Assembly (NCBI RefSeq): GCF_009914755.1
Contig: NC_060927.1
From: the human T2T-CHM13v2.0 reference genome, Homo sapiens
Reading direction: 5' to 3' (one strand)
DNA: 64,000 bases
The notes beneath the pieces were generated by a model. That model worked only from the letters and a program-made list of their open reading frames with translations. It ran no database searches and was not told where the DNA came from. A program made the translations under genes and the position numbers. Below are positions 2,975 through 64,000 of this stretch, piece after piece. Every line of letters starts with the position of its first letter. The first letter of the stretch is position 1.

Positions 2975-4690
<1,716 letters not shown>

Positions 4691-37591: not shown

Positions 37592-38637
37592 CAGTAGTCC
37601 CCCCTTTCCTTGGGGGATATGTTCCAAGACCCCCAGTGGATGCCTGAAACTATGGACAGTACTAAACCCTATATATGCATTCCCACATGGTACGAGGATT
37701 AATCTGTCCTTCCATGTTTATGCCTTGGTGCCTCATTCACACTTCTATGAATACAGGTTCTATTGGGCATCTTCTTCCAGCAGAGCTTGCTTTCATTGCA
37801 ATTAAAGATTTGCTTTAGATGGAAATGTGGCTGTAGCTTCTTCATCAGCAGACACAGCCTCTCCAGTAATTTTTATATTTTTCAGTCCAAGCTGATTTCT
37901 AAATCTGTGTAGCCATCCTCTACTTGCAATAAATGGCCTGTTTCAAGGGATCTCTTGCTGAAGTCTTCATATCAGCCCAAAGCTTTCCAGTGCAACATAT
38001 CATCAACCAGAACACATTTCTGTTATGTCTTCCACCCTCAAATTTAATGCCATTTCCATCTTAACTCAGCATATACAACACACTGTGGCCATAACTGTTG
38101 TAGTTTGAGATGTGACTGCAAAACTAACACAAATTTTCTTCTTTCTTTCTTCACAATTTTACAGATAGAAGATTCATTTTCACCATAGATCTCAGCAACC
38201 TCAATATATGATTTTTCATAAGTCAAGGGCTTTAATTGTTTTAGTTCAAAGAAGCACTTTATGGCTTCTTTTTGGTATATCCAAATTGCCAGCATCACTA
38301 CTCTTGTGCTTTGGGACCATTCTTAAAGAAAATAAGGGTTACTTGAACACAAGCATTGTTATACCATGACAGTCAGTCTGATAACTGAGATGGCTAGTAA
38401 ATGATTCATGGGGGTAGTGTGTACAACGTGGATATGCCGGACAAAGGGCGCAGTCACGTCCCAGGTGGGATGCAGTGGCGTGACACGATATTTCTTCATG
38501 CTACTCAGAATGGCACACAATTTAAAACTTAAGAATTATTTATTCCTGGAATTTTCCATTTGGTTATGTTTGGACTACAGTTGACCATGGGTAACTAAAA
38601 CCTCAGAAAGTTAAACCAGGGATAAAGCGGACTCCTG
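37592..38637 (-). mobile_element. Tigger7/MER44-family DNA transposon
   Basis: ta|cagtagtccccc TIR, then gttccaagacccccagtggatgcctgaaac; far end gataaagcggactcctg. Confidence 0.8.
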
Positions 38638-38985
38638 CGTGGAATTTCAGAATGACACAAATAGGTGGAGAGATTAATATTTTATTAGTTGTAAAACACT
38701 ATAGTATGTTCATAGAAAATTACATTTGTTATGTAAAAAGAGGTATTCATTCTAAAGGATAGCCACAAACATTTTCCCCCTGAATTGACCTTTGTGCTCT
38801 AATGCTTGCTGCCCTCGTTTTAGCAGAACATAGACCATAAGGTTAGCAGGGTTCTGACTTTGGTAACCCAGGGTCTCTGGAGTCCCCATTTCCATTAATA
38901 CTAATTTCAACAATTCTAGTCCTGACCAAGATGCTGGAGAAAGTTTAGGCTCCTCCAGTTATTTCTGAGGAGCTCCAAACACTAT

Positions 38986-39540
38986 CAGCAGGTCCTCCTT
39001 TTCTGCAGTTTGTTACACAAAGTCAACCACTGTCTGAAATTTTTAAAAGGAAAATTCCAGAAATAATGTTTTAAATTGTGTGCCATTCTGAGTAGCATGA
39101 TGAAATTGCATGTCATCCCGCTCCATCCTGCCTTGAAGGTGAATCCTCCCTTTGTCCAGCATATCACACCATGGATGCTACCCGCCTGTTAGCCCTCCTG
39201 GTAATCAGATCTACTGTCATGATATCGCAGTGCTTGTGATCAAGTAACCCTTATTTTATTTAAGAATGGCCTCAAAGCACAAGAATAGTGATGCTGGCAG
39301 TTCAGATACACCAAAAAGAAGCCGTGAAGTGCTTCCTTTAAGGGAAAGCTCTCAAGAGGAAAAAAGAGCCTATGTCGAGGTTGCTAAGATCTACAGTAAG
39401 AAAGAATCTTCTACCTATAAAACTGTGAAGATGGAAAAAGAAATTAGTGTATAGTATGCATAGCGTTCAGTACTAAGGTTTCAGGCATCTACTTGGGGGA
39501 CTTGGAATGTATCCCCCAGGGATAAGGCGGGGGACTACTG
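38986..39540 (+). mobile_element. MER44-family (Tigger7) non-autonomous element
   Basis: Ends ...caggcatctacttgggggacttggaatgtatccccc..gataaggcgggggactactg. Reverse-complement homology to 37592-38637. Confidence 0.8.
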
Positions 39541-40246: not shown

Positions 40247-41771
40247 GTAATAGAAGAATTTGGGCTCTGCCCCACGTGTTCCACATCATGTATATTAAAG
40301 ATAACATGGAAATACATGCCCAAACAGCTACTGGGCATGTAATTGATCTGAATTTTCTGGAATGTCATTCACAAAATTCACCCAAAATCTTTTAAAATGC
40401 TCCTACATTTCCACCTAACCATTCTACTTCTAGGAATTTATCTCACATTAAATGAGCAGAGGTACACCAAACTATATACAAGCATATTCACTGCAGCACA
40501 CTGCTATTGCCTTTAGGTTTCCTACTATTTTCAATAAATAATTGGGAAATTAATTAAAGATCATACTTTACTTTTTAAAATTTTAATCTAGTATTAAAAT
40601 GATAACCAGGATGACTTAATCATCCTGCATTGAAAAGTAACTGGAAAGAAAAAAGCCAAAGCTTTAAGATGTTGCCTTTGGAGTGATAGGACCATGAGTT
40701 CTTCCTTACCCTCACACCTCAGAAGGAAGCCAGATACCTCCTTAAGCCCCTGGGCTCTGCCTGTTCTCCCTTGCTCTGAGTTTAGTCAAGGTTGGTGCTC
40801 TGATTGAAACTGCATTGTTCTTTTCTTATGGGTCATTTCATTTTAATTGTTGTTCAATTAATCTTTTTCTAAATTTTAGGCAAAAAATCTTACCAGTAAT
40901 TTAAAATATCTTAAGATGCCATGATCATGGGAAGTACTTTTAGGGAATACTTTCCTAAAGTACTTTGCTTTTAGTACCAGAATTTTGAGCTAGAGAGCAT
41001 CTGGGCAAAACTTAGATCTAGTTGATCTCCACATTTTACAGATCAGGAAACAGGAATCCAGGAAGTTAGCTTAAGTGCCAAGTAGGCATGTGAAACAGAT
41101 TTAGGTGGATCATTTAATATCACCAAGCCAGCTAATGGTAGAGGCAGGTTGAGGCCCCCAGAAGCCCTCCCTTATTCCATTATCCCCCTGAGAAGGCTCT
41201 GGGTGTCCTGGGAACTTGAGATAGATCCTATGTCTCTTTTATCTGTCCTTCTGGTTGATATTTGGCTATTGCCCCTGCTGAAGTTAGGAGATTAGGGTTA
41301 TAGCAGAAACTATTATTGAAGATACAGTTTTAGGGGCAATGGAGAGCAAGCATTTCACCAATTCTAGCCCTGTGATCATTCGTACTAATAAGCAGGATAG
41401 TTCCTGTCCCTTGGCTGGCCAGATGGAGTAAGACCACAGGCAGTCTAGCCTGTCCACGAAGATCAACCGTTGACCTAATATACTGATATTTGTGATTGGA
41501 TTAGGTTCAAATTATGGGAGGTGGTGCTACATCCTACTCAAGAATGATAGTTTAGTTTCTTTAGTGGAAGTCTGCATAAGTCAGTTCTCAACTGAAAACA
41601 CATGGCACACTCAAAACTGGATAAAGAACTTATGAGACAGTATATTCATGGCTGGGAGCACCCGAATCACTAGCAAACTTAAACTTGAAGGGACAAGGAC
41701 AGAGAGCAGTTCCCAAAACTTGGAAGGAGAGAGTCACGTAAGATTAGTTGCCTTGTAAGGAGAGTGACTTA

Positions 41772-44731
41772 CTTCTTTTTTTTTTTTTCTTTCTTTTTAA
41801 GTTCTGGGATACATGTGCTGAACATGCAGGTTTGTTACATAGGTATACATGTGCCCTGGTGGTTTGCTGCACCTATCAACCTGTCATCTAGGTTTTAAGC
41901 ACCACATACATTAGGTATTTGACCTGATGCCCTCCCTCCCCTTTACCCTCATCCTCCAACAGGCCCCAGTGTGTGATGTTCCCCGCCCTGTGTCCAAGTG
42001 ATCTCATTGTTCAATTCCCACCTATGAGTGAGAATATGCGGTGTTTGGTTTTCTGTCCTTGTGATAGTTTGCTGAGAATGATGGTTTCCAGCTTCATCCA
42101 TGTCCCTGCAAAGCACATGAACTCATTCTTTTTTATGACTGCATAGTATTCCATGGTGTATATGTGCCACATTTTCTTTATCCAGTCTATCCTTGATGGG
42201 CATTTGGGTTGGTTCCAAGTCTTTGCTATTGTGCATAGTGCTGCAATAAACATACATGTGCATGTGTCTTCATAGTAGAATGATTTATAATTTTTTGGGT
42301 ATATACCCAGTAATGGGATTGCTGGGTCAAATGGTATGTCTGGTTCCAGATCCTTGAGGAATCGCCACACTGTCTTCCACAATGGTTGAACTAATTTACT
42401 CTCCCACCAACAGTGTAAAAGCATTCCTATTTCTCCATATCTGATCTCTAGCATCTGTTGTTTCCAGACTTTTTAATGATCACCATTCTAACTGGTATGA
42501 GATGGTATCTCATTGTGGTTTTGATTTGCATTTCTCTAATGACCAGTGATGAGGTGCTCTTTTTCATATGTTTGTTGGCTGCATAAATGTCTTCTTTTGA
42601 GAAGTGTCTGTTCATATCCTTCACCCACTTTTTGATGGGGCTGTTTATTTTTTTCTTGTAAATTTGTTTCAGTTCCTTCTAGATTCTGGATATTAGACTT
42701 TTGTCAGATGGGTAGACTGCAGAAATTTTCTCCCATTCTGTAGGTTGCCTGCTCACTCTGATGATAGTTTCTATGGCTGAGCAGATGCTCTTTAGTTTAA
42801 GTAGATCCCATTTGTCAATTTTGGCTTTTGTTGCAATTGCTTTTGGTGTTTTAGTCATGAAGTCCTTGTCCATGTCTATGTCCTGAATGATATTGCCTAG
42901 GTTTTCTTCTAGGGTTTTTATGGTTTTAAGTTTTATGTTTAAGTCTTTAATCCACCTTGAATTAATTTTTGTATAAGGTGTAAGGAAGGGGTCTAGCTTC
43001 TATTTTCTGCATATGGCTAGCAAGTTTGCCCAGCACCATTTATTAAACAGGGAATCCTTTCCCCATTGCTTGTTTTTGTCAGGTTTGTCAAAGATCGAAT
43101 GGTTGTAGATGTGTGGTGTTATTTCTGAGGCCTGTGTTCTGCTCCATTGGTCTATGTATCTGTTTTGGTATCAGTACTATGCTGTTTTGGTTACTGTAGC
43201 CTTGTGGTATAGTCTGAAGTCAGGCAGCATGATGCCTCCAGCTATGTTCTTTTGCTTAGGATTGTCTCGGCTATATGGGCTGTTTTTTGGTTCCATATGA
43301 AATTTAAAGTACTTTTTTCTAGTTCTGTGAAGAAAGTCAATGGTAGCTTGATGAGAATAGCATTGAATCTATAAATTACTTTGGGCAGTATGGCCATTTT
43401 CACGATATTCATAAGTATGAAATTTTTTTCCATTTGGTTGTGTCCTCTCTTATTTCCTTGAGCAGTGGTTTGTAGTTCTCCTTGAAGAGGTCCTTCACAT
43501 CCCTTGTAAGTTGTATTCCTAGGTATTTTATCTTCTTTGTAGCAATTGTGAATGGGAGTTCACTCATGATTTGGGTCTCTGTTTGTCTGTTATTGGTGTA
43601 TAGGAATGCTTGTGATTTTTGCACATTGATTTTGTATCCTGAGACTTTACTGAAGTTGCTTATCAGCTTAAGGAGATTTTGGGCTGAGACAATGGGGATT
43701 TCTAAATATACAATGACATCATCTGCAAACAGAGACAATTTGACTTCCTCCGTTCCTATTTGAATACTCTATTTATGTCTCTTGCCTGATTGCCCTGGCC
43801 AAAACTTCCAATACTATGTTGAACTATGGTGAGAGAAGGCATCCTTGTCTTGCGCCGGTTTTCAAGGGGAATGCTTCCAGCTTTTGCCCATTCAGTATGA
43901 TATTGGCTATGGGTTTGTCATAAATAGCTCTTATTATATTGAGATATGTTCCATCAATGCCCAGTTTATTGAGAGTTTTTAGCATGAAGTGGTGTTGAAT
44001 TTGATTGAAGGCCTTTTCTGCATCTATTGAGATAATCATGTGGTTTTTGTCACTGGTTCTGTTTATGTGATGGATTACATTTATTGATTTGCATATGTTG
44101 AACCAGCCTTGCATCCCAAGGATGAAGCCAACTTTATCATGGTGCATAAGCTTTTTGATGGGCTGTGGATTCAGTTTGCCAGTATTTTATTGAGGATTTT
44201 CGCTTTGATGTTCATCAGGGATATTCGCCTGAAGTTTTCATTTTTTATTGTATCTCTGTCAGGTTTTGGAATCAGGATGATGCTGGCCTTATAAAATGGT
44301 TAGGGAGGAGTCCCTCCTTTTCTGTTGTTTGGAATAGTATCAGAAGGAATGGTACCAGCTCCTCTTTGTACCTCTGGTAGAATTCGGCTGTGAATCTGTC
44401 TGGTCCTGGGCTTTTTTGGCTGGTGGGTTATTAATTACTGCTTCAATTTCAGAACTTGTTATTGGTTTATTCAGAGATTCGACTTCTTCCTGGTTTAGTC
44501 TTAGGAGGGTGTCCGGGAATTTATCTATTTCTTCTAGATTTTCTAGTTTATTTGCTTAGAGGTGTTTATAGTATTCTCTAATAGTAGCTTGTATTTCTGT
44601 GGGATCAGTTGTGATATCCCCTTTATCATTTTTTATCGTGTCTGTTTGATTCTTCTTTCTTTTCTTCTTTATTAGTCTGGCTAGCAGTCTATCTATTTTG
44701 TTAATCTTTTCAAAATAGCAGCTCCTGGGTT
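41772..44731 (-). mobile_element. Host L1 (L1PA7/8-like), non-inverted 3' part: ORF2 C-terminal half, 3' UTR and poly(A)
   Basis: Poly-T at ~41776 and minus-strand ORF2 fragments ([26 protein letters not shown]). TSD gagagtgactt at 41760-41770. Confidence 0.95.
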
Positions 44732-47116: not shown

Positions 47117-53319
<6,203 letters not shown>

Positions 53320-53332
53320 AAAAAACTAGAGA

Positions 53333-53428
53333 AGCAAGAGCGAACAAATTCAAAAGCTAGCAGAAGACAAAAAATAACTAAGATCAGAGCAGAAATGAAG
53401 GAGATAGACACACGAAAAACCCTTCAAA
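53333..53428 (+). mobile_element. Remainder of the inverted host-L1 segment
   Basis: Resumes the host ORF2 sequence (agcaagagcgaacaaattcaaaagctagc...acccttcaaa), followed by the TSD copy gagagtgactt at 53435-53445. Confidence 0.92.
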
Positions 53429-53541
53429 GAACCAGAGAGTGACTTTCAATTGAAGGACAGAGCCATACCAAGGTGACCTTACAGGGAAACAGCTGGGAGA
53501 GTAAATACCTAATTTCACTCTTCCCTGTCTCTGATCTACAG

Positions 53542-57255: not shown

Positions 57256-58117
57256 AACTTAGATATCTTTTAAAAAAATTCCATTGTGAAGAAAAACTCC
57301 ATTGAGATAATATTTGTCTACCATCTCTGCTTCCCCCTAGCCTTGGTTCCTTTTTAAAAATTGTGTCCTAGTGAGAGAACATGATACTTAATAATAAAAC
57401 TGGATGCATCCCCAAGCTGAAGTTTTACTTTACTGAGTATGTGCCTGGGGTGTGGAGAAACACTAGCATCCTAACTTCAGGATTGGTAATATGACAACAG
57501 CAAATTTCTAAGAAAAGGTTTGGGATATAGAGATGTTTCCTGAATATAAACATTGGCTTATTAAAGGATAATTCCAAACATTTTTTACTGAAGTTTTAAA
57601 AAATTACTATTCCAGGAAAAAAAAAAAACCCTAGAAAAGTTCCATGTTAAATGTTTCATGTTGTTTTCTCATTGCGTTAAGACCGATGGTAAGAAGGAGC
57701 GACTGCTTTGGATACAGCCCGACACACATACCTGCTAGTTCACTCTGTGGCTGTGCATCCCTCTCCGCCAACCACAAAACTCAAATTTGGTTCACCTTGC
57801 TCAAAATGGTACCCTGATTTTTCAAGAGCATCCACTTTGATCTGTCTGAGCCAACCCTGACAATTGCAGTCCTCTTGCCACTAGACTGGTTCAGCATAAG
57901 CAGATAAAGAAATCTGCTCACTAGGGTATGAGGAAAATTATTCCAGAGGTCTGTTTCTGGGAAAGTGTTTCTCCATTTTAAGAAGAGACAGGTTATCGTA
58001 TGGGGAGAAAATGCTCAGGACTGCTGAAGTCCTCTTACGGCGACAAGAGATTCCGACAAGAATGAACCTGGGTCCTCTGATACCACTGAGTCCCTGAATT
58101 AATCGTCAAGCTACCCA

Positions 58118-58660
58118 TATGAGTCAGGGTTGGATCAGGGAGGCAGAATCAGAGAATGACAGAATAAAGATTTATTATAGAGCTTCAGCCTTACACAATT
58201 GTGGGTGCTGGTGGAGAAGTCTAGGCCAGGCTGTTCCCTCTGCATCTGGTTCTGGGCCTGAAGTCACTGTAGGTCGACTGTGAATGCAGCAAGGATGAAG
58301 GGAAGTCCATAAGAACAAACAGAACCCATGTCTGTCTCACGGCCTCCACTGCAATGCTGTGTGTGATCTCAGGAAAAGCTGATGCTGGTTGCCATGGAGC
58401 TGCACACACACCTGGCCAGTACTTTGCAAAGCTGAAGGAGGAGGCTGGCAGGAGCTGGAAGAGCTCTGGGTCCAGGGAGCTGTCTCTGGTCTCTTCTAGC
58501 TCCCCTTTTTGGCCTGGAGTCATATTTTCAAGCTGTCACCATGCTTGGGTCTGTACACTGACCTTATGAGTATAAAATAGCTGCTGATCAAATTAATGCA
58601 AATTTCTTTATGACCTACTCCAATCCAGAACCATGAGAGAGAGGAATTCCGGGACATGTT
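58118..58660. mobile_element. Ancient ERVL-type LTR-like element
   Basis: gagtcagggtt...aaagatttattatag...ccttacacaattgtgggtgctgg resembles MLT2/LTR41-class LTR ends. Family uncertain. Confidence 0.5.
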
Positions 58661-59333
58661 CCTCCAGCTGAGCCAAATCGGTACTGCACAAATCCAGCAT
58701 ATTACCTGTCACTGAATGTCTCGTGTGGGGTTACCTCCATGTTTAAAGCATGTACCAGCATATAGCCTACATGTGTGTTGATTAGGAGAGTTTTGCCTAC
58801 ATGTTCAAATTGCCTAACTATAGCTATATTTATATCACAATGCTGAGGAGATCTTATGACTTCCATTCTACCACTGCTGGCTCACAATATACATTCATAG
58901 ATTTAGGGGTGAATCAAGCCAAAGTTGCCTAACTTTAGTAAAAACCATTCACCAACATGCCCTAGTCCCCATGAAGCGTGACTGGTCTAAGGACATCTTC
59001 TATGAGTCCTACCCATTAAGAGGAAATATGGACAAAGGATCAAGTATTTATTCATTTTTTAAACATCAGAATTGAAAAGGTTCTTCCATTTATTTAATCT
59101 GTCATGTGAAGCATTAGAAGGTAGTTTACTTGCATTTGAGGATCAAAAAATCCCCATTAACTGTGGAAGCAATGATATTCCCTTTAATTATTTTTCTAAT
59201 TGCCTTGTTTATATGGTGTGAAAAGCAATTTAAACATGTTTTTAAAAATGTTTCCATGCAACCTAAGTTTTTGGCCATGAAACAGCACCTTCCTTGTACT
59301 TCTCCAGCTGTTGTCCTTTCAAAGCAGGGGATG

Positions 59334-59348
59334 CTATTCTTCTTGAAC
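59334..59348 (-). CDS. MYH15: MYH15 last coding exon (VQEE*), followed by 3' UTR
   Basis: Minus strand tttttcag|GTT CAA GAA GAA TAG; in phase with the upstream exon ending FGKK. Confidence 0.85.
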   Translation of the reverse strand, partial: VQEE

Positions 59349-60271
59349 CTGAAAAACAGAATGTCAGTGTGTTCTGTGAATTTCCTGTGATTTTCACCAG
59401 TGGAACACATGTCCAGAACCAAGCTGAGTCCCTTCCAGAGGTAAGCAGGCCTTAGCCAACTCTTCATTAACTTCAAAGGGAGGCAGGGAATTGAGGCAAT
59501 TATCTGCATTACAGAAAGCAGACCCTGGTAATTCACCCCAAGGGCATGCTCGGTCACTCTCAATTTTCTGCCTGCCTTGTCTTGCCAATGAAGGCAGCGC
59601 CCCCCTTTGCCAACCCCATAAGGAGAAAGATTCTGCAGCCACATCACCAGTTTGCTCCCCAGCCCTGACACAGAATTCTATCAGCAAACCTCTTCCTTGT
59701 GCATATGACAGTTGAGGATTTTTTGGCTTTTCTTCTGTGAAGGGGAAACAATTAGTCATTGCACTGCCAAGGAAGGTTTTCCTATTCCTCTCTGGCCTCT
59801 CAAAAGCAATTTCTACTTCACTCACTCTGTTCTTTGTTGAAAATAACTGTGACAAAGTCGAATGCATGGCATCTGTTTTGAAGGCCCTTCAACCTCCTGC
59901 AGCTGAATGCAATTGCAGCACATGGGAAGCACCTCCCTAAACAAGTCATTACATGGGGTTGCTGGTGGGCTCTGCAGAGAAGACCCTAAATCCAGTGCCA
60001 CAACACTTCTCAAATTGAGGCCAAAGTTCAAACCACTTAATTGCCCCTCTCGCATAGGACTTATCCTTGAGGCAGCTATTCAGGCATCAGTAAAAAATTT
60101 CTGGAGTCTCTCAATGATTCATATTTCTTATATTTAGATCTAAGTATATTCAATATAACCAACTCTTAGGCTCTCCTTCAAAAGAGATGCTTTTGACCTC
60201 CCTTAAGGTAGTATTTATGCATATTATTGGCAACCCTATCAACTTACCTTGCAGGGTTACTAGTCATTCAG

Positions 60272-61118
60272 TTAGGGCCTGGATTCATTTGTATAAAATA
60301 ATCAGGAGTCCATGGAACAAAGATGATTTTAAAAAGCACAGATGGATCGGCTCAAAATTTGGAGTGAACTCTTTCCATAGTAGACACATGTGTGACTTTT
60401 TACCATGTCAATATGGAGTCCAAGAGGGAAGACGTTTAAGATTGAGGCAGTGAAGGAAAACAAATGCAAGAGTCTTGCTTTGTAGTTCTCTGCTTTATAT
60501 TCCTGATTCTGCCCGAAAACACAGAGAAAGAGGGCTGGTGATGCACCACGTTTAAAAAAATAATAATAATAATGAAATGATGGTGCCTAACTATGCCAGA
60601 AGCTATGCTCAGTGATTTCAGGCAATCTATTAGCTAATACCACATTATCCAATCTCCTTTGATTCCTTTCGCCTAAAGCCAGACCTCGTTTAAAAACTGT
60701 GTGTTCCTGGGAAAATTTCAACAAGGAAGCCAAGACTACCTGACCCTACCAAACATTTAGTACATTGTTCTTTGTCACTCTACCAGTAAAATCAGGGCAA
60801 TGGCCTCTACCATTAGATTAGAAGAGCCATTTTGTGGACCAAAGAGACATAGAAAGATCCTTTCTCTGTGTTTTTGGGCAGAATCAGGAATATAAAGCAG
60901 AGAACTACAAAGCAAGACTCTGGTATTTGTTTTCCTTCACTGCCTCAATTTTAAACATCTTCCCTCTTGGACTCCAAATTGATATGGTACAAAGTCACGT
61001 ATGTGTCTACTGTGGAAAGAGTTCACTCTGAATTTTGAGCCGATCCATCTGTGCTTTTTAAAATCAACTTTGTTCCATGGACTCCTGACTACTTTACACT
61101 AATGAATCCAGGCCCTAA
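60272..61118. repeat. Long inverted repeat: 259-bp arms (60272-60530 / 60860-61118), 329-bp spacer
   Basis: Manual alignment of the left arm with the reverse complement of the right arm: 241/259 identical, no gaps. Confidence 0.97.
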
Positions 61119-61383
61119 ATCTTAGATCCTGCAAGTTAACATGGAAGTAAGCATTTGAAAAGTATAAATACAATGTGCATGTCACTCAAATGCTTAGCAT
61201 TTCATCTACCAGGACAAGTATAATTTAGCAAACATGGGAAGATTTTATTGGAACCCTTTGTTCTTATCTTTTAAAAGCTTTTAAGGAGAAAAACAAATTT
61301 CTTGTTATACTGGTCCATGCAATGACATCAGCCCTAAACAAACATGATTAAAGAGTTAGAACAGAGTTGAATATCTGCCATAC

Positions 61384-61518
61384 CTTTTTCCCAAACTCTC
61401 TTGCTTTAATTTTGAGTTTATTGACTTGAGATTCTGCCACCTCTGCCCTTTCCTTCACTTCATTCAACTCATGTTGCTGTTTCTTATACTTGGAAAGGTA
61501 TTGATTGGCTTGTGTTTC
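61384..61518 (-). CDS. MYH15: MYH15 penultimate coding exon (myosin tail)
   Basis: 135 nt with ag|...|gtatg; [45 protein letters not shown], the end of a sarcomeric myosin rod. Confidence 0.95.
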
Positions 61519-62477
61519 CTATAAAAATAAAAAAAAAAAAAAAAAGAAATCTCCATGCCTATATAGTCAGGTGTTTTTTTTTTCTGCTCTGACATGAGAA
61601 AGTTGAATAATGTGAAAAGAATCTAAACTTCTGAGTATTGAATGGGATATCATATTTTGGTATGATATATTAGGATTCAGACTTTCTAGCAGGTATAAGA
61701 TCCATTTTTTTATAACTTTTGTTCCTTGGAAATTCAGAACCTAGTTGGCACTTTTCATCAACTGGATGCAGTAAAGCTCTCACAGACTGAAAATGTGCTA
61801 GAATAACCACAGTTGTCTATTTTGTCATGAGTTTAACATCCTATTCTACCCCTGGGTAGAGGGGGCTTGTCTTTAAAATTATATGGGTCAACAGGTAATT
61901 ATTAGACCTTGGGCTAGAACAGGTAGTGTTTTAGGCCAAATCATTGAAATAATCAAAACCCCTCAAGAGTTAATATTAGGGATAAATCAATATATATGAC
62001 ACTTATCAATTACATTCCCTGTAGTTATAGATACTGACCCAGGGATGGCAAGTACATTTCAATTTATGGTGGTTTTGTCCACAACCATATCCAGGATCAT
62101 CAAGAACAAATACTGTGAACCATGTTTATGTTTACCCAAGGTTTTGGGATGAGGGAGGCCCCAGGGTGACTACCTTGCCCAAAACTGGCCTTCCCTACGT
62201 GACACTCTGCTTTTACCTATCTCATTTCTTGTTGTGTACCTGTTTGGGTGCAACCACAAAGGTAAAGGAGAGAGCTCTGGCTTCCTGGAGGGAAAAGCCA
62301 CGCACATTTTTGCCATGGGTGAGAATTCTAACTTGAGAAAAAAAACTGAGGATGAGCAGACTCTAAGCTGCGCAGGCCCTCTCTGACAAGCTGCTTGCTG
62401 AGCTCAGGGTCACAGATCTCCCTTAATCAAAACAACACTGGGAAATCCATGAGGCTGAAACTTCCCCAGGCACTCAC

Positions 62478-62573
62478 CGCCACCTCGACTTGCTGCTTGT
62501 AATTTTGCACTTTTAGCTGAAGTTTATCCATCTGAGTTTGCATCCTGCTCAGATTCTTCTTGTCTTCCTCTGC
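62478..62573 (-). CDS. MYH15: MYH15 coding exon (myosin tail coiled coil)
   Basis: 96 nt with cag|...|gtgagt; AEEDKKNLSRMQTQMDKLQLKVQNYKQQVEVA, homologous to the EEDRKN...LQLKVK exon of other MYH genes. Confidence 0.95.
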
Positions 62574-64000
62574 CTGCAATACATAGGCATGTATGGGAAG
62601 GTGATTCAGAGGATCCAGCAGTCTACGTTGGTGTAGTCTCATGTGGGGAAATAAGGATCAGGGAACTTTATTAAACATCATCTCAGAGTTGTGATTTTAA
62701 CAATGGGTTTAACTCACCCAAGTTCCAAGAAATTGATAAATAGAACTGTCAGTACTAACAGTCATTTGTCCTGATCCATCAACCTTTGCTGAAATGGGAG
62801 TTAAACCCATTAGGTTCAGTTTGGGTCTTCAGTCTTTCCAGCTCAACCAAGCTATATCTGCCTGAAGCTATATCTGTATACTTAAAATTAGTAGTGAATT
62901 ATCTACTGTTATATTTTACTTTAAGGTGGTGGTAGTGGGGGTGCATTCAGATGACGAAAACAGCAATAGCTTTAGCTATAGCTAAATAAAAAGCTGTATC
63001 TTTATTTAGCAGGAATGAAGTGCATTATTATAAAAGCCACATATGCAAAACTGAAAACCAATTGCTCCCCAATCAAAACAACTATTCCTTTGAACTTTCT
63101 AATTGACTCTTGGTTTTGAGTAATAGAACTATAGAAAAGATAAATTTTCTGGAATTCTGATGCGGAGATAGCAAGGAAGATTCTACAAGCTGTGGGGACC
63201 ATGGTGTGCCCATTCTCATTGCCTCAATTACAATCCAGCCTCGGGCTGAAGAAAGGAAATCTGGTGGGATAATGTTTCTCAACTGTGCTCTGCAGAGCCT
63301 TTGGTATTCCAGAGAGAGAGGAGGCTAGAGGCAGGCAGGTAGATAGGGGTCTGCCTGCCCCCTCTTTCCTCATGCCCCTTTAACTGGAATATTTCCATAT
63401 TGGAGCTATTGTACTTTTCAAAGGAAGAAAATATCTCAATTTGCTCAGGGTTGAGAAGCTGATTTAATCAAGAAAGATCTACTACTGCTTAAAATTGTTT
63501 TCTGGCTCCATTTGACCTATTCCATCAAGTATGAACTTTTTTGGCAGCTTTAATGTTCCCCCTACTTACCTTCCATTCCCCCCACCACCACGAACCCACT
63601 CCAACCAGGTCACATTCTCCTGTTTCCCCAGAGCTCCCCTGCTCACTCTGTCCTCCTTAGGTTTAGCCAAGCTATTCTCATCATCTGGAATGCTCCCCCG
63701 CCACACACACCACCACCTTAAAGTACCATGTAAAAGTAGATATTAATAATTACTAATTTTAACCATCAGGAGGCAGGGATGAATATATATGAAAGAACCT
63801 AGTTGGGGAACTGAGACAAGTCTGGTTCAAATAAAATCCCTTCTTTGTTTTTATCTGCCTATCCCTCAACTTGTCAGGTTTATAAAATTCAAAAGACTCA
63901 TAGCATTATGTGCTTACAGTAAATTATAAAATCAACACAGGTTTAATTGCTAATAATCAGTTTACTGAGAAGAGAGTAAATTGGTCATAAAGGAGGCCAC

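What the first reader, a model, noticed from the sequence alone, without database searches (positions are those of the whole stretch)
60272..61118. 259-bp gap-free, 93%-identical inverted repeat in the last MYH15 intron: candidate long hairpin RNA or flip switch
Seen: arms 60272-60530 and 60860-61118 differ at 18 sites with no indels around a 329-bp loop. I do not recognise them as Alu, L1 or LTR. Of the 18 differences, 13 are transitions: 9 form G-U pairs in a + strand RNA and A-C mismatches in MYH15 pre-mRNA. The stem starts 265 nt after the donor of the penultimate exon. Known: A-C mismatches in long stems are favoured ADAR sites, long hairpins can yield endo-siRNAs, and MYH6/MYH7/MYH7B host intronic myomiRs, while I know none for MYH15. 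Inference, alternatives: (a) a functional hairpin/small-RNA or splicing element; (b) arms homogenised by gene conversion with a recurrently inverting spacer; (c) an uncatalogued DNA transposon with long TIRs (flanks tta|gggcc...ggccc|taa recall PIF/Harbinger TWA sites); (d) a neutral primate inverted duplication.
Basis: partly seen in the sequence, partly recalled or inferred. Interest (0 to 1): 0.8.

Follow-up and report, generated by a model that had tools for sequence, protein, structure and literature searches.

The report
Single-copy inverted duplication in MYH15 intron
A 259-base stretch of the last MYH15 intron is present twice in opposite orientation, found nowhere else in the human genome, and looks like an old one-off copying accident that is decaying neutrally rather than a mobile element or a proven RNA gene.

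Summary
Arms 60272-60530 and 60860-61118 are 259 nt long with 18 mismatches (13 transitions), no indel and a 329-nt spacer, and the repeat ends sharply on all four sides.

Searches of the window's own genome with the element, one arm, the spacer and the whole intron found only this locus. The same tool gave 9,494, 2,868 and 26 first-look candidates for three repeat-containing controls, with hits down to 68% identity. The arms are therefore not a recognisable interspersed repeat. TTA...TAA continues the inverted repeat and is not a direct target-site duplication.

The 18 differences look neutral:
- they are spread as at random;
- 3 are at CpG sites;
- the 9:4 G-U asymmetry is not significant (p 0.27);
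- there is no coding constraint;
- there is no Rfam match.

The longest perfect tract is 46 nt, which argues against ongoing inversion or gene conversion.

Best reading (about 0.65): a locus-specific inverted duplication of unique intron DNA. From the 7.3% arm divergence I infer an age near the ape/Old-World-monkey split. It must fold into a long hairpin in MYH15 pre-mRNA and is a plausible ADAR substrate. I found no evidence of function. Other species, RNA editing and small RNAs could not be tested here.

The parts
60272..60530 (.). left arm of the inverted repeat (259 nt)
   Evidence: only self and the other arm match in the genome
60531..60859 (.). 329-nt spacer, unique, not palindromic
   Evidence: self only; inner flanks show no inverted similarity above shuffles; GC 39%, as in the arms and the window
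60860..61118 (.). right arm, reverse complement of the left arm with 18 substitutions
59349..61383 (-). last MYH15 intron, which hosts the repeat; donor GTATGG, acceptor TTTTTCAG
   Evidence: hub annotation; splice sites read; the whole intron is single-locus
60851..60865 (.). small palindrome AGAAAG-ATC-CTTTCT across the junction of the spacer and the right arm; the 7-mer AGAAAGA also occurs at 60525-60531, at the inner end of the left arm
   Evidence: read; not tested for significance; a possible junction microhomology, unexplained
60244..60255 (.). 12-nt outer-flank match (TTACCTTGCAGG), inverted partner at 61128-61139, 11 of 12 bases
   Evidence: 30 of 2000 shuffles reach the score with 40-nt flanks; not significant with 80- or 160-nt flanks

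Best explanation
This is a one-off, locus-specific inverted duplication of ordinary unique intron sequence. A 259-bp piece of the last MYH15 intron was copied once in reverse orientation about 330 bp away. The likely cause is a replication or repair template switch, in which the growing strand copies the opposite strand and then returns. The two copies have since diverged by neutral point substitution to 7% (about 3.5% per arm). By recalled genome-wide divergences (human-macaque about 6.5%), this places the event near the ape/Old-World-monkey split. Because both arms lie in one intron, every MYH15 pre-mRNA must be able to fold into a 259-bp hairpin with 14 unpaired positions. Such a hairpin is a plausible nuclear ADAR substrate and is removed with the intron. 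Shown: the structure, its single-locus status and the neutral-looking substitution pattern. Inferred: the mechanism, the date, and that it has no selected function.
For: 1. Single locus. The element, one arm, the spacer and the whole 2,035-nt intron each match only this locus in the 3.1-Gb assembly, with 1-2 first-look candidates.
2. Controls with the same tool:
- A 339-nt LTR-like repeat gave 9,494 candidates at 86-89% identity.
- An old repeat pair in the HHLA2 intron gave 2,868 candidates at 68-79%.
- A 6.7-kb query covering the repeat gave 26 candidates. Its matches to other loci, 68-88% identical, fell at window 58109-58484, apart from two 34-nt poly-A matches and one self inverted pair at 62882-62964/63671-63762. 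The repeat matched only itself.
3. Terminal motif. The 19-mer has 689 matches at up to 3 mismatches, against 200 for the reversed control. None of the 28 other loci fetched (1-2 mismatches), among the best matches, shows similarity beyond the seed (best E 0.029 over 32 nt).
4. Neutral-looking differences:
- Transitions to transversions are 13:5, and 3 differences lie at CpG sites.
- The longest perfect run is 46 nt, and 45% of random placements of 18 differences give a run at least that long.
- The absence of indels has P about 0.11-0.22 under a recalled indel:substitution ratio of 1:8 to 1:12.
- In the one frame open in both arms, 15 codons differ up to the stop: 12 replacements, 1 nonsense and 2 silent.
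5. Composition. GC of the arms and spacer (39%) equals that of the window.
6. Mechanism. One-step creation of inverted repeats by template switching is documented in primates, for short events (PMC10710096, passages read).
Against: No other species could be examined, so the date, which arm is the copy, and neutrality all rest on this one sequence. Documented template-switch events are much shorter (fragments from 15 nt, stems of 30-55 nt in PMC10710096) than 259 nt. No clear junction microhomology was found; there is only an untested 6-bp palindrome at the inner right junction. A low-copy, very old repeat family cannot be excluded. The old repeat in the MYH15 3' UTR gave only about two dozen candidates, so many old copies are missed by the first look. 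The sharp GGGCC...GGCCC ends beside TA do resemble transposon termini.
Confidence: 0.65

Rival explanations
1. A solitary or very low-copy non-autonomous DNA transposon with 259-bp terminal inverted repeats. It would be either PIF/Harbinger-like with a TWA target site, or Tc1/mariner-like with a TA target site and GGGCC termini.
For: The architecture is two long inverted ends around a short unique core, 847 bp in all, with sharp outer boundaries. The ends GGGCC...GGCCC are flanked by TA on both sides. The terminal 19-mer is 3.4 times commoner than its reversed control.
Against: No second copy was found in the genome by a search that finds families at 68-89% identity (against 33, 34, 50). None of the 28 other fetched loci, among the best terminal-motif matches, extends beyond the seed. 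TTA on the left and TAA on the right are reverse complements, not a direct 3-bp duplication, and there is no 8-9-bp duplication (read). Arms only 7% apart would imply an insertion about as recent as, or later than, the end of DNA-transposon activity in anthropoids. That activity ended about 37 Myr ago (abstract of PMC2997546 in the listing). Sister copies of that age would be similar enough to detect.
Confidence: 0.12
2. An older inverted duplication whose arms were kept alike by gene conversion. Recombination between the arms would also flip the spacer (a flip switch).
For: 259-bp arms that were identical at birth could recombine. The innermost 62 nt carry 1 difference against about 4.3 expected (my count; not significant).
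Against: The longest uninterrupted identity is now 46 nt. This is far below the roughly 200 bp recalled as needed for efficient mammalian homologous recombination. The differences are placed as at random, with no conversion-like mosaic. Nothing links spacer orientation to any function.
Confidence: 0.1
3. A selected RNA element. The hairpin would be kept because it yields small RNAs (a myosin-hosted miRNA or endo-siRNA), acts as an ADAR editing or retention signal, or shortens the effective intron for splicing.
For: A very stable stem forms in either strand: -498.5 kcal/mol for the - strand and -491.8 for the + strand. It lies in a transcribed intron. Three other sarcomeric myosin genes host intronic miRNAs, and the review names none for MYH15 (PMC6402096, passages). 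There are nine A-C mismatches in the MYH15 strand, a context recalled as favoured by ADAR.
Against: No Rfam family matches: the one hit is MIR5148 at 61140-61209, outside the arms, E 0.13 and 23.5 bits against a threshold of 93.5. The stem is about 7 times longer than the 35-bp miRNA stem preferred according to PMC10710096. The strand with better pairing is the + strand, antisense to MYH15 (arm duplex -431.7 against -419.5), and the 9:4 bias is not significant (p 0.27). Five transversions break pairing in both strands. The differences are placed at random. Two full-text searches pairing MYH15 with 'inverted repeat' or 'RNA editing' found nothing on this locus.
Confidence: 0.08

Closest known systems
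Intronic inverted-repeat dsRNA of the inverted-Alu type (ADAR substrates)
   Same: Two inverted copies within one intron, a few hundred nt apart, fold into a stem of about 260-300 bp in pre-mRNA. That length is typical of edited human dsRNAs (median 297 bp in PMC11838218).
   Different: The arms are unique sequence, not an interspersed repeat. In that preprint more than 90% of predicted dsRNAs and more than 99% of edited ones are repetitive. Its non-repetitive ones are short, with medians of 75-144 bp. Editing at this locus was not testable here.
Template-switch mutations that create inverted repeats and new miRNA hairpins in primates (PMC10710096)
   Same: An inverted copy of nearby sequence arises in one step inside a transcribed region, starts perfect, and then gathers mismatches.
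   Different: Reported events are tens of nt long (fragments from 15 nt, stems of 30-55 nt). Here the copy is 259 nt with a 329-nt spacer. The comparison of parent and child sequences that defines such an event could not be made.
Non-autonomous DNA transposons with terminal inverted repeats (PIF/Harbinger 'Tourist'-like, or Tc1/mariner-derived MITEs)
   Same: Inverted ends, a short non-coding core, sharp outer boundaries, and TA or TWA next to the ends.
   Different: Only a single copy was found, there is no direct target-site duplication, the inverted ends are far longer than is usual for MITEs (recalled), and no transposase-related sequence was found.
Hairpin-RNA (hpRNA) endo-siRNA loci of Drosophila and mouse oocytes (recalled)
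   Same: A long, near-perfect intramolecular hairpin derived from an inverted duplication.
   Different: There is no small-RNA evidence. Human somatic Dicer is recalled to process long dsRNA poorly. The hairpin lies in an intron of a gene with narrow expression.

Membership tests
Interspersed repeat / DNA transposon (any superfamily) | Multiple dispersed copies in the genome | tested here: not met
   The element, arm, spacer and intron match only this locus. Controls gave 9,494, 2,868 and 26 candidates. A very old low-copy family cannot be excluded.
PIF/Harbinger | Direct 3-bp TWA target-site duplication on both sides | tested here: not met
   The left flank is TTA and the right flank is TAA on the same strand. 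These are reverse complements, so they continue the inverted repeat and are not a direct duplication.
Tc1/mariner | TA duplication flanking the terminal repeats, with family-typical termini shared by other copies | tested here: inconclusive
   TA lies on both sides of GGGCC...GGCCC, but a 2-bp palindrome is weak evidence. None of the 28 other fetched loci, among the best terminal-motif matches, shares more than the seed.
hAT / MuDR | 8-9-bp direct target-site duplication | tested here: not met
   The flanks read show no direct 8-9-mer next to the arms.
miRNA / myomiR | Match to a curated miRNA family, or a stem-loop of about 35 bp | tested here: not met
   Rfam at E up to 1 over 59300-61600 gives only MIR5148, 23.5 bits against a threshold of 93.5, outside the arms. 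The stem is 259 bp.
Intronic long dsRNA / ADAR substrate | Long near-perfect intramolecular duplex inside a transcribed unit | tested here: met
   The fold of the - strand is -498.5 kcal/mol, z -28.7. It lies within the MYH15 intron 59349-61383 (hub annotation).
Intronic long dsRNA / ADAR substrate | Observed A-to-I editing clusters on both arms | not testable with these tools
   No RNA-seq or editing database is available here. Full-text searches found nothing. The held supplements of PMC11838218 and PMC7006430 do not contain 'MYH15'.
Invertible segment (recombination between inverted repeats) | Long uninterrupted identity between the arms, and both spacer orientations present in populations | tested here: not met
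   The longest perfect tract is 46 nt; the threshold of about 200 bp is recalled. Orientation polymorphism was not testable.
Template-switch inverted duplication | An ancestral state with one copy, and a derived state explained by one switch-and-return event | not testable with these tools
   No other vertebrate genome is held. Only the derived state is seen.
Protein-coding or transposase remnant | Open frame with a family match or with purifying selection | tested here: not met
   No Pfam hit reaches its cut-off for the 6 translated frames. In the frame shared by the arms there are 12 replacements, 1 nonsense and 2 silent changes. The window holds 30 stop-free stretches of at least 111 codons, so the 111-codon frame is not unusual.

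The most novel reading that the evidence does not exclude
A lineage-specific hairpin-RNA locus built from unique sequence rather than repeats. The MYH15 last-intron hairpin, or an antisense transcript in which 9 of the 13 transition differences pair as G-U, would be processed into endo-siRNAs or miRNA-like RNAs, or act as a dedicated ADAR-edited nuclear retention or splicing element. That would give MYH15 its own hosted regulatory RNA, parallel to miR-208a, miR-208b and miR-499 in MYH6, MYH7 and MYH7B.
Probability: 0.05. Interest if true: 0.6.

Novelty: new member of a known kind. Interest (0 to 1): 0.2.

Why it matters
If the best reading holds, this is an ordinary relic of a structural mutation. 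Its main value is as a clean example of a long hairpin made from unique DNA, because it is single-copy and reads from it map without ambiguity. That makes it a convenient natural substrate for measuring ADAR editing or dsRNA sensing without the mapping problems of Alu pairs. It is also a candidate large-scale case of the template-switch process so far described for short hairpins. It would matter more only if primate comparisons showed that pairing is conserved, or if RNA data showed processing.

Tried and rejected
- **Known RNA family.** The Rfam scan found nothing above threshold.
- **Repeat family through the terminal motif.** There are 689 genomic matches against 200 for the control. None of the 28 other loci fetched, among the best matches, extends beyond the seed, so I read the excess as compositional.
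- **A second copy within the window.** None found.
- **Extension of the repeat into the flanks.** Only a 12-nt match at p about 0.015, and not significant with longer flanks.
- **Palindromic spacer.** Rejected.
- **Coding remnant.** Rejected.
- **Viral or prokaryotic origin or contamination.** An exact 35-mer from the longest perfect run has no match in the prokaryote genome contigs or the viral contigs.
- **Mitochondrial insert.** Not tested directly, because the held assembly has 24 contigs. I judge it unlikely because no other nuclear locus matches.
- **Profile search with both arms.** The tool takes protein alignments only, so this was dropped.
- **Literature.**
  - MYH15 with 'inverted repeat' or 'RNA editing' gave 1 and 3 papers, none about this locus judging by titles and abstracts.
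  - The held supplement of the dsRNAscan preprint is 11,065 characters of PDF text. It holds neither 'MYH15' nor the coordinate prefix I recalled. Its Tables S2 and S5 and its web resource were not seen, and they may list this hairpin.
  - The 3 held supplements of PMC7006430 also hold no match.
  - The coordinate prefixes used came from my recall of hg19/hg38 positions and may be off.
- **MIR motif as a sensitivity control.** A recalled 20-nt core motif of the MIR repeat had no match in the window, so I used other controls.

Full report
**1. The observation**

The repeat finder gives arms 60272-60530 and 60860-61118, 259 nt, 93% complementary, 329 nt apart. A base-by-base comparison gives 18 mismatches, no indel, 13 transitions and 5 transversions.

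From that list, 9 transitions would be G-U pairs in a + strand RNA and A-C mismatches in the - strand (MYH15) RNA. Four do the reverse.

The boundaries are sharp. The next five bases inward all mismatch, and outward only one of the first six bases matches. Local alignment of the outer flanks finds one 12-nt inverted match, 60244-60255 with 61128-61139, 11 of 12 bases. With 40-nt flanks 30 of 2000 shuffles reach it, and it loses significance with 80- or 160-nt flanks. The inner flanks show nothing.

The host intron is 59349-61383 on the - strand. It has GTATGG at the donor and TTTTTCAG at the acceptor. The stem starts 265 nt after the donor and ends 923 nt before the acceptor.

The - strand RNA folds at -498.5 kcal/mol (z -28.7 against 20 shuffles) and the + strand at -491.8.

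**2. Is it a repeat family?**

The window's own 3.1-Gb assembly was searched with four queries: the whole element, the left arm, the spacer and the whole 2,035-nt intron. Each time only this locus came back, with 1-2 first-look candidates. The tool warns that it uses a loose first look, so I ran three controls.

| Query | First-look candidates | Identity of hits |
|---|---|---|
| 339-nt masked stretch, window 4061-4399 (I recognise it as a MaLR/THE1-type LTR; that label is recalled) | 9,494 | 86-89% among the 40 scored |
| Second inverted repeat of the window, in the HHLA2 intron (38200-39400) | 2,868 | 68-79%; it is two inverted copies of an old interspersed repeat |
| 6.7-kb query, 57300-64000 | 26 | 68-88% to window 58109-58484 (MYH15 3' UTR) |

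In the third control, the matches to other loci fell on that 3' UTR stretch, apart from two 34-nt poly-A matches and one inverted pair within the query (62882-62964 with 63671-63762). The MYH15 repeat again matched only itself.

The search therefore sees families down to about 70% identity when they are reasonably abundant. It could still miss a very old family of few copies.

A pattern search with the terminal 19-mer at up to 3 mismatches gave 689 matches against 200 for the reversed control. BLAST of the element against the 28 other loci fetched, among the best matches (1-2 mismatches), found nothing beyond the seed; the best was 32 nt at E 0.029. No other copy lies in the window. An exact 35-mer from the arm is absent from the prokaryote genome contigs and the viral contigs.

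**3. Transposon features**

The arms begin TTAGGGCC and end GGCCCTAA. TTA on the left and TAA on the right are reverse complements of each other. They are part of the inverted repeat, not the direct 3-bp duplication that defines a PIF/Harbinger insertion. A TA on each side is compatible with Tc1/mariner but is weak evidence. There is no 8-9-bp direct duplication.

The arms differ by 7.3% (Jukes-Cantor). A transposon whose ends were identical at insertion would then have landed about as late as, or later than, the last DNA-transposon activity in anthropoids. That activity ended some 37 Myr ago (abstract of PMC2997546, seen in the listing). Sister copies of that age would be about 85-90% identical to this one. 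The THE1-type control shows that such copies are found easily. I therefore give the transposon reading about 0.12.

**4. Signs of selection or homogenisation**

None was found.
- The 18 differences are spread as at random. The longest perfect run is 46 nt, and 45% of random placements give a run at least that long.
- Three differences lie at CpG sites, and the transition:transversion ratio is 13:5.
- The absence of indels has a probability of about 0.11-0.22 if indels are 1/8 to 1/12 as frequent as substitutions. That ratio is recalled.
- The 9:4 split of transitions between the strands has p = 0.27.
- The strand with the better duplex is the + strand, antisense to MYH15: arm-arm cofold -431.7 against -419.5 kcal/mol.
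- A 111-codon stop-free frame crosses the left arm. The window holds 30 such stretches, so this is not unusual. In the frame shared by the arms there are 12 replacements, 1 nonsense and only 2 silent changes. None of the 6 translated frames reaches a Pfam cut-off.
- Rfam gives no family. The only hit at E up to 1 is MIR5148 at 61140-61209, 23.5 bits against a gathering score of 93.5, and it lies outside the arms.

A longest identical tract of 46 nt is well below the roughly 200 bp I recall as needed for efficient homologous recombination in mammalian cells. Present-day inversion of the spacer or gene conversion between the arms is therefore unlikely. Either may have happened soon after the duplication.

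**5. What it most likely is**

I read it as a single inverted duplication of unique intron DNA that is now decaying neutrally (confidence 0.65).

One-step formation of inverted repeats by template switching during replication is documented in primates, and some of those events became miRNA genes (PMC10710096, passages read). Those events are tens of nucleotides long, so this would be a much larger event of the same kind.

I could not identify junction microhomology. One curiosity is a 6-bp palindrome, AGAAAG-ATC-CTTTCT, across the junction of the spacer and the right arm (60851-60865). The 7-mer AGAAAGA also occurs at the inner end of the left arm (60525-60531). This was read and was not tested.

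From recalled genome-wide divergences (human-macaque about 6.5%), an arm divergence of 7.3% points to an origin near the ape/Old-World-monkey split. This is an inference, not a measurement.

**6. What it does**

Physically, every MYH15 pre-mRNA carries a 259-bp stem with 14 unpaired positions (9 A-C and 5 transversion mismatches). It lies in an intron and is removed by splicing. The expected consequence is nuclear A-to-I editing when the gene is transcribed, as for inverted Alu pairs.

Some context from the literature:
- In the dsRNAscan preprint more than 90% of predicted human dsRNAs and more than 99% of edited ones are repetitive. Non-repetitive ones have median lengths of 75-144 bp, and edited dsRNAs have a median of 297 bp (PMC11838218: abstract, section 10 and passages). 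A 259-bp stem of unique sequence is thus in the upper tail of a known class.
- That paper's thresholds for suspected MDA5 substrates are more than 300 bp and more than 96% paired. This stem does not meet them.
- Barak et al. report that long dsRNA is much less depleted in pre-mRNA than in mature mRNA (PMC7006430, passages). That fits a tolerated intronic hairpin.
- The myosin review names miR-208a, miR-208b and miR-499 in MYH6, MYH7 and MYH7b, and none for MYH15. It describes MYH15 transcripts in brain, testis and pituitary, and MYH15 protein in rat extraocular muscle and muscle spindles (PMC6402096, passages).

**7. Limits**

No other vertebrate genome, repeat library, editing database or small-RNA data was available. 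Three things rest on this one sequence:
- the date of the event;
- which arm is the copy;
- the claim of neutrality.

Two full-text searches for MYH15 with 'inverted repeat' or 'RNA editing' found nothing on this locus. The supplements I could search did not contain MYH15. The large tables and the web resource of the dsRNAscan study were not visible, and they may already list this hairpin.

**8. Verdict**

The feature is real, accurately described, and not chance. It is not a recognisable mobile element. Nothing supports a functional hairpin or a switch. It is most likely a neutral, single-copy inverted duplication of primate age. Interest is low to moderate (0.2). As for novelty, it is a new member of a known kind.

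Noticed in passing
window 38245-38396 and 39190-39341 (similarity runs over about 38240-38640 and 39000-39400): A second inverted repeat, in an HHLA2 intron: 152 nt gap-free at 84%, 793 nt apart. It consists of two inverted copies of an old interspersed repeat, with 2,868 genomic candidates at 68-79% identity. The family was not named.
   Followed up: partly
window 41769-44731 and 50320-53431: Large inverted pair of L1-like fragments in an HHLA2 intron. The gap-free arms reach 810 nt at 90%, and BLAST blocks reach 2.2 kb at 87%, about 5.6-8.6 kb apart. This is a far longer potential dsRNA in HHLA2 pre-mRNA than the MYH15 hairpin. The L1 label is my recognition of the sequence, not a tool result.
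   Followed up: no
window 58109-58484: An old interspersed repeat inside the MYH15 3' UTR exon. It matches about two dozen loci on many chromosomes at 68-88% identity. The family was not identified.
   Followed up: no
window 62882-62964 and 63671-63762: A weak inverted pair (76% over 83-92 nt) in the next MYH15 intron upstream. It may be two copies of an old repeat.
   Followed up: no
window 60851-60865 and 60525-60531: A 6-bp palindrome, AGAAAG-ATC-CTTTCT, lies exactly across the junction of the spacer and the right arm. The 7-mer AGAAAGA recurs at the inner end of the left arm (read). It may be a trace of the duplication junction. Its significance was not tested.
   Followed up: no
window 60118-60453 (+): A 111-codon stop-free frame runs from the left flank into the left arm. 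It has no Pfam match. The other arm has a stop in the same frame and mostly replacement changes. The window holds 30 frames of this length, so I judge it chance.
   Followed up: yes
window 61522-61556: A poly-A run just beyond the penultimate MYH15 exon explains two 34-nt, 97% matches to other chromosomes (sequence read). It is low-complexity sequence and not a repeat family.
   Followed up: yes
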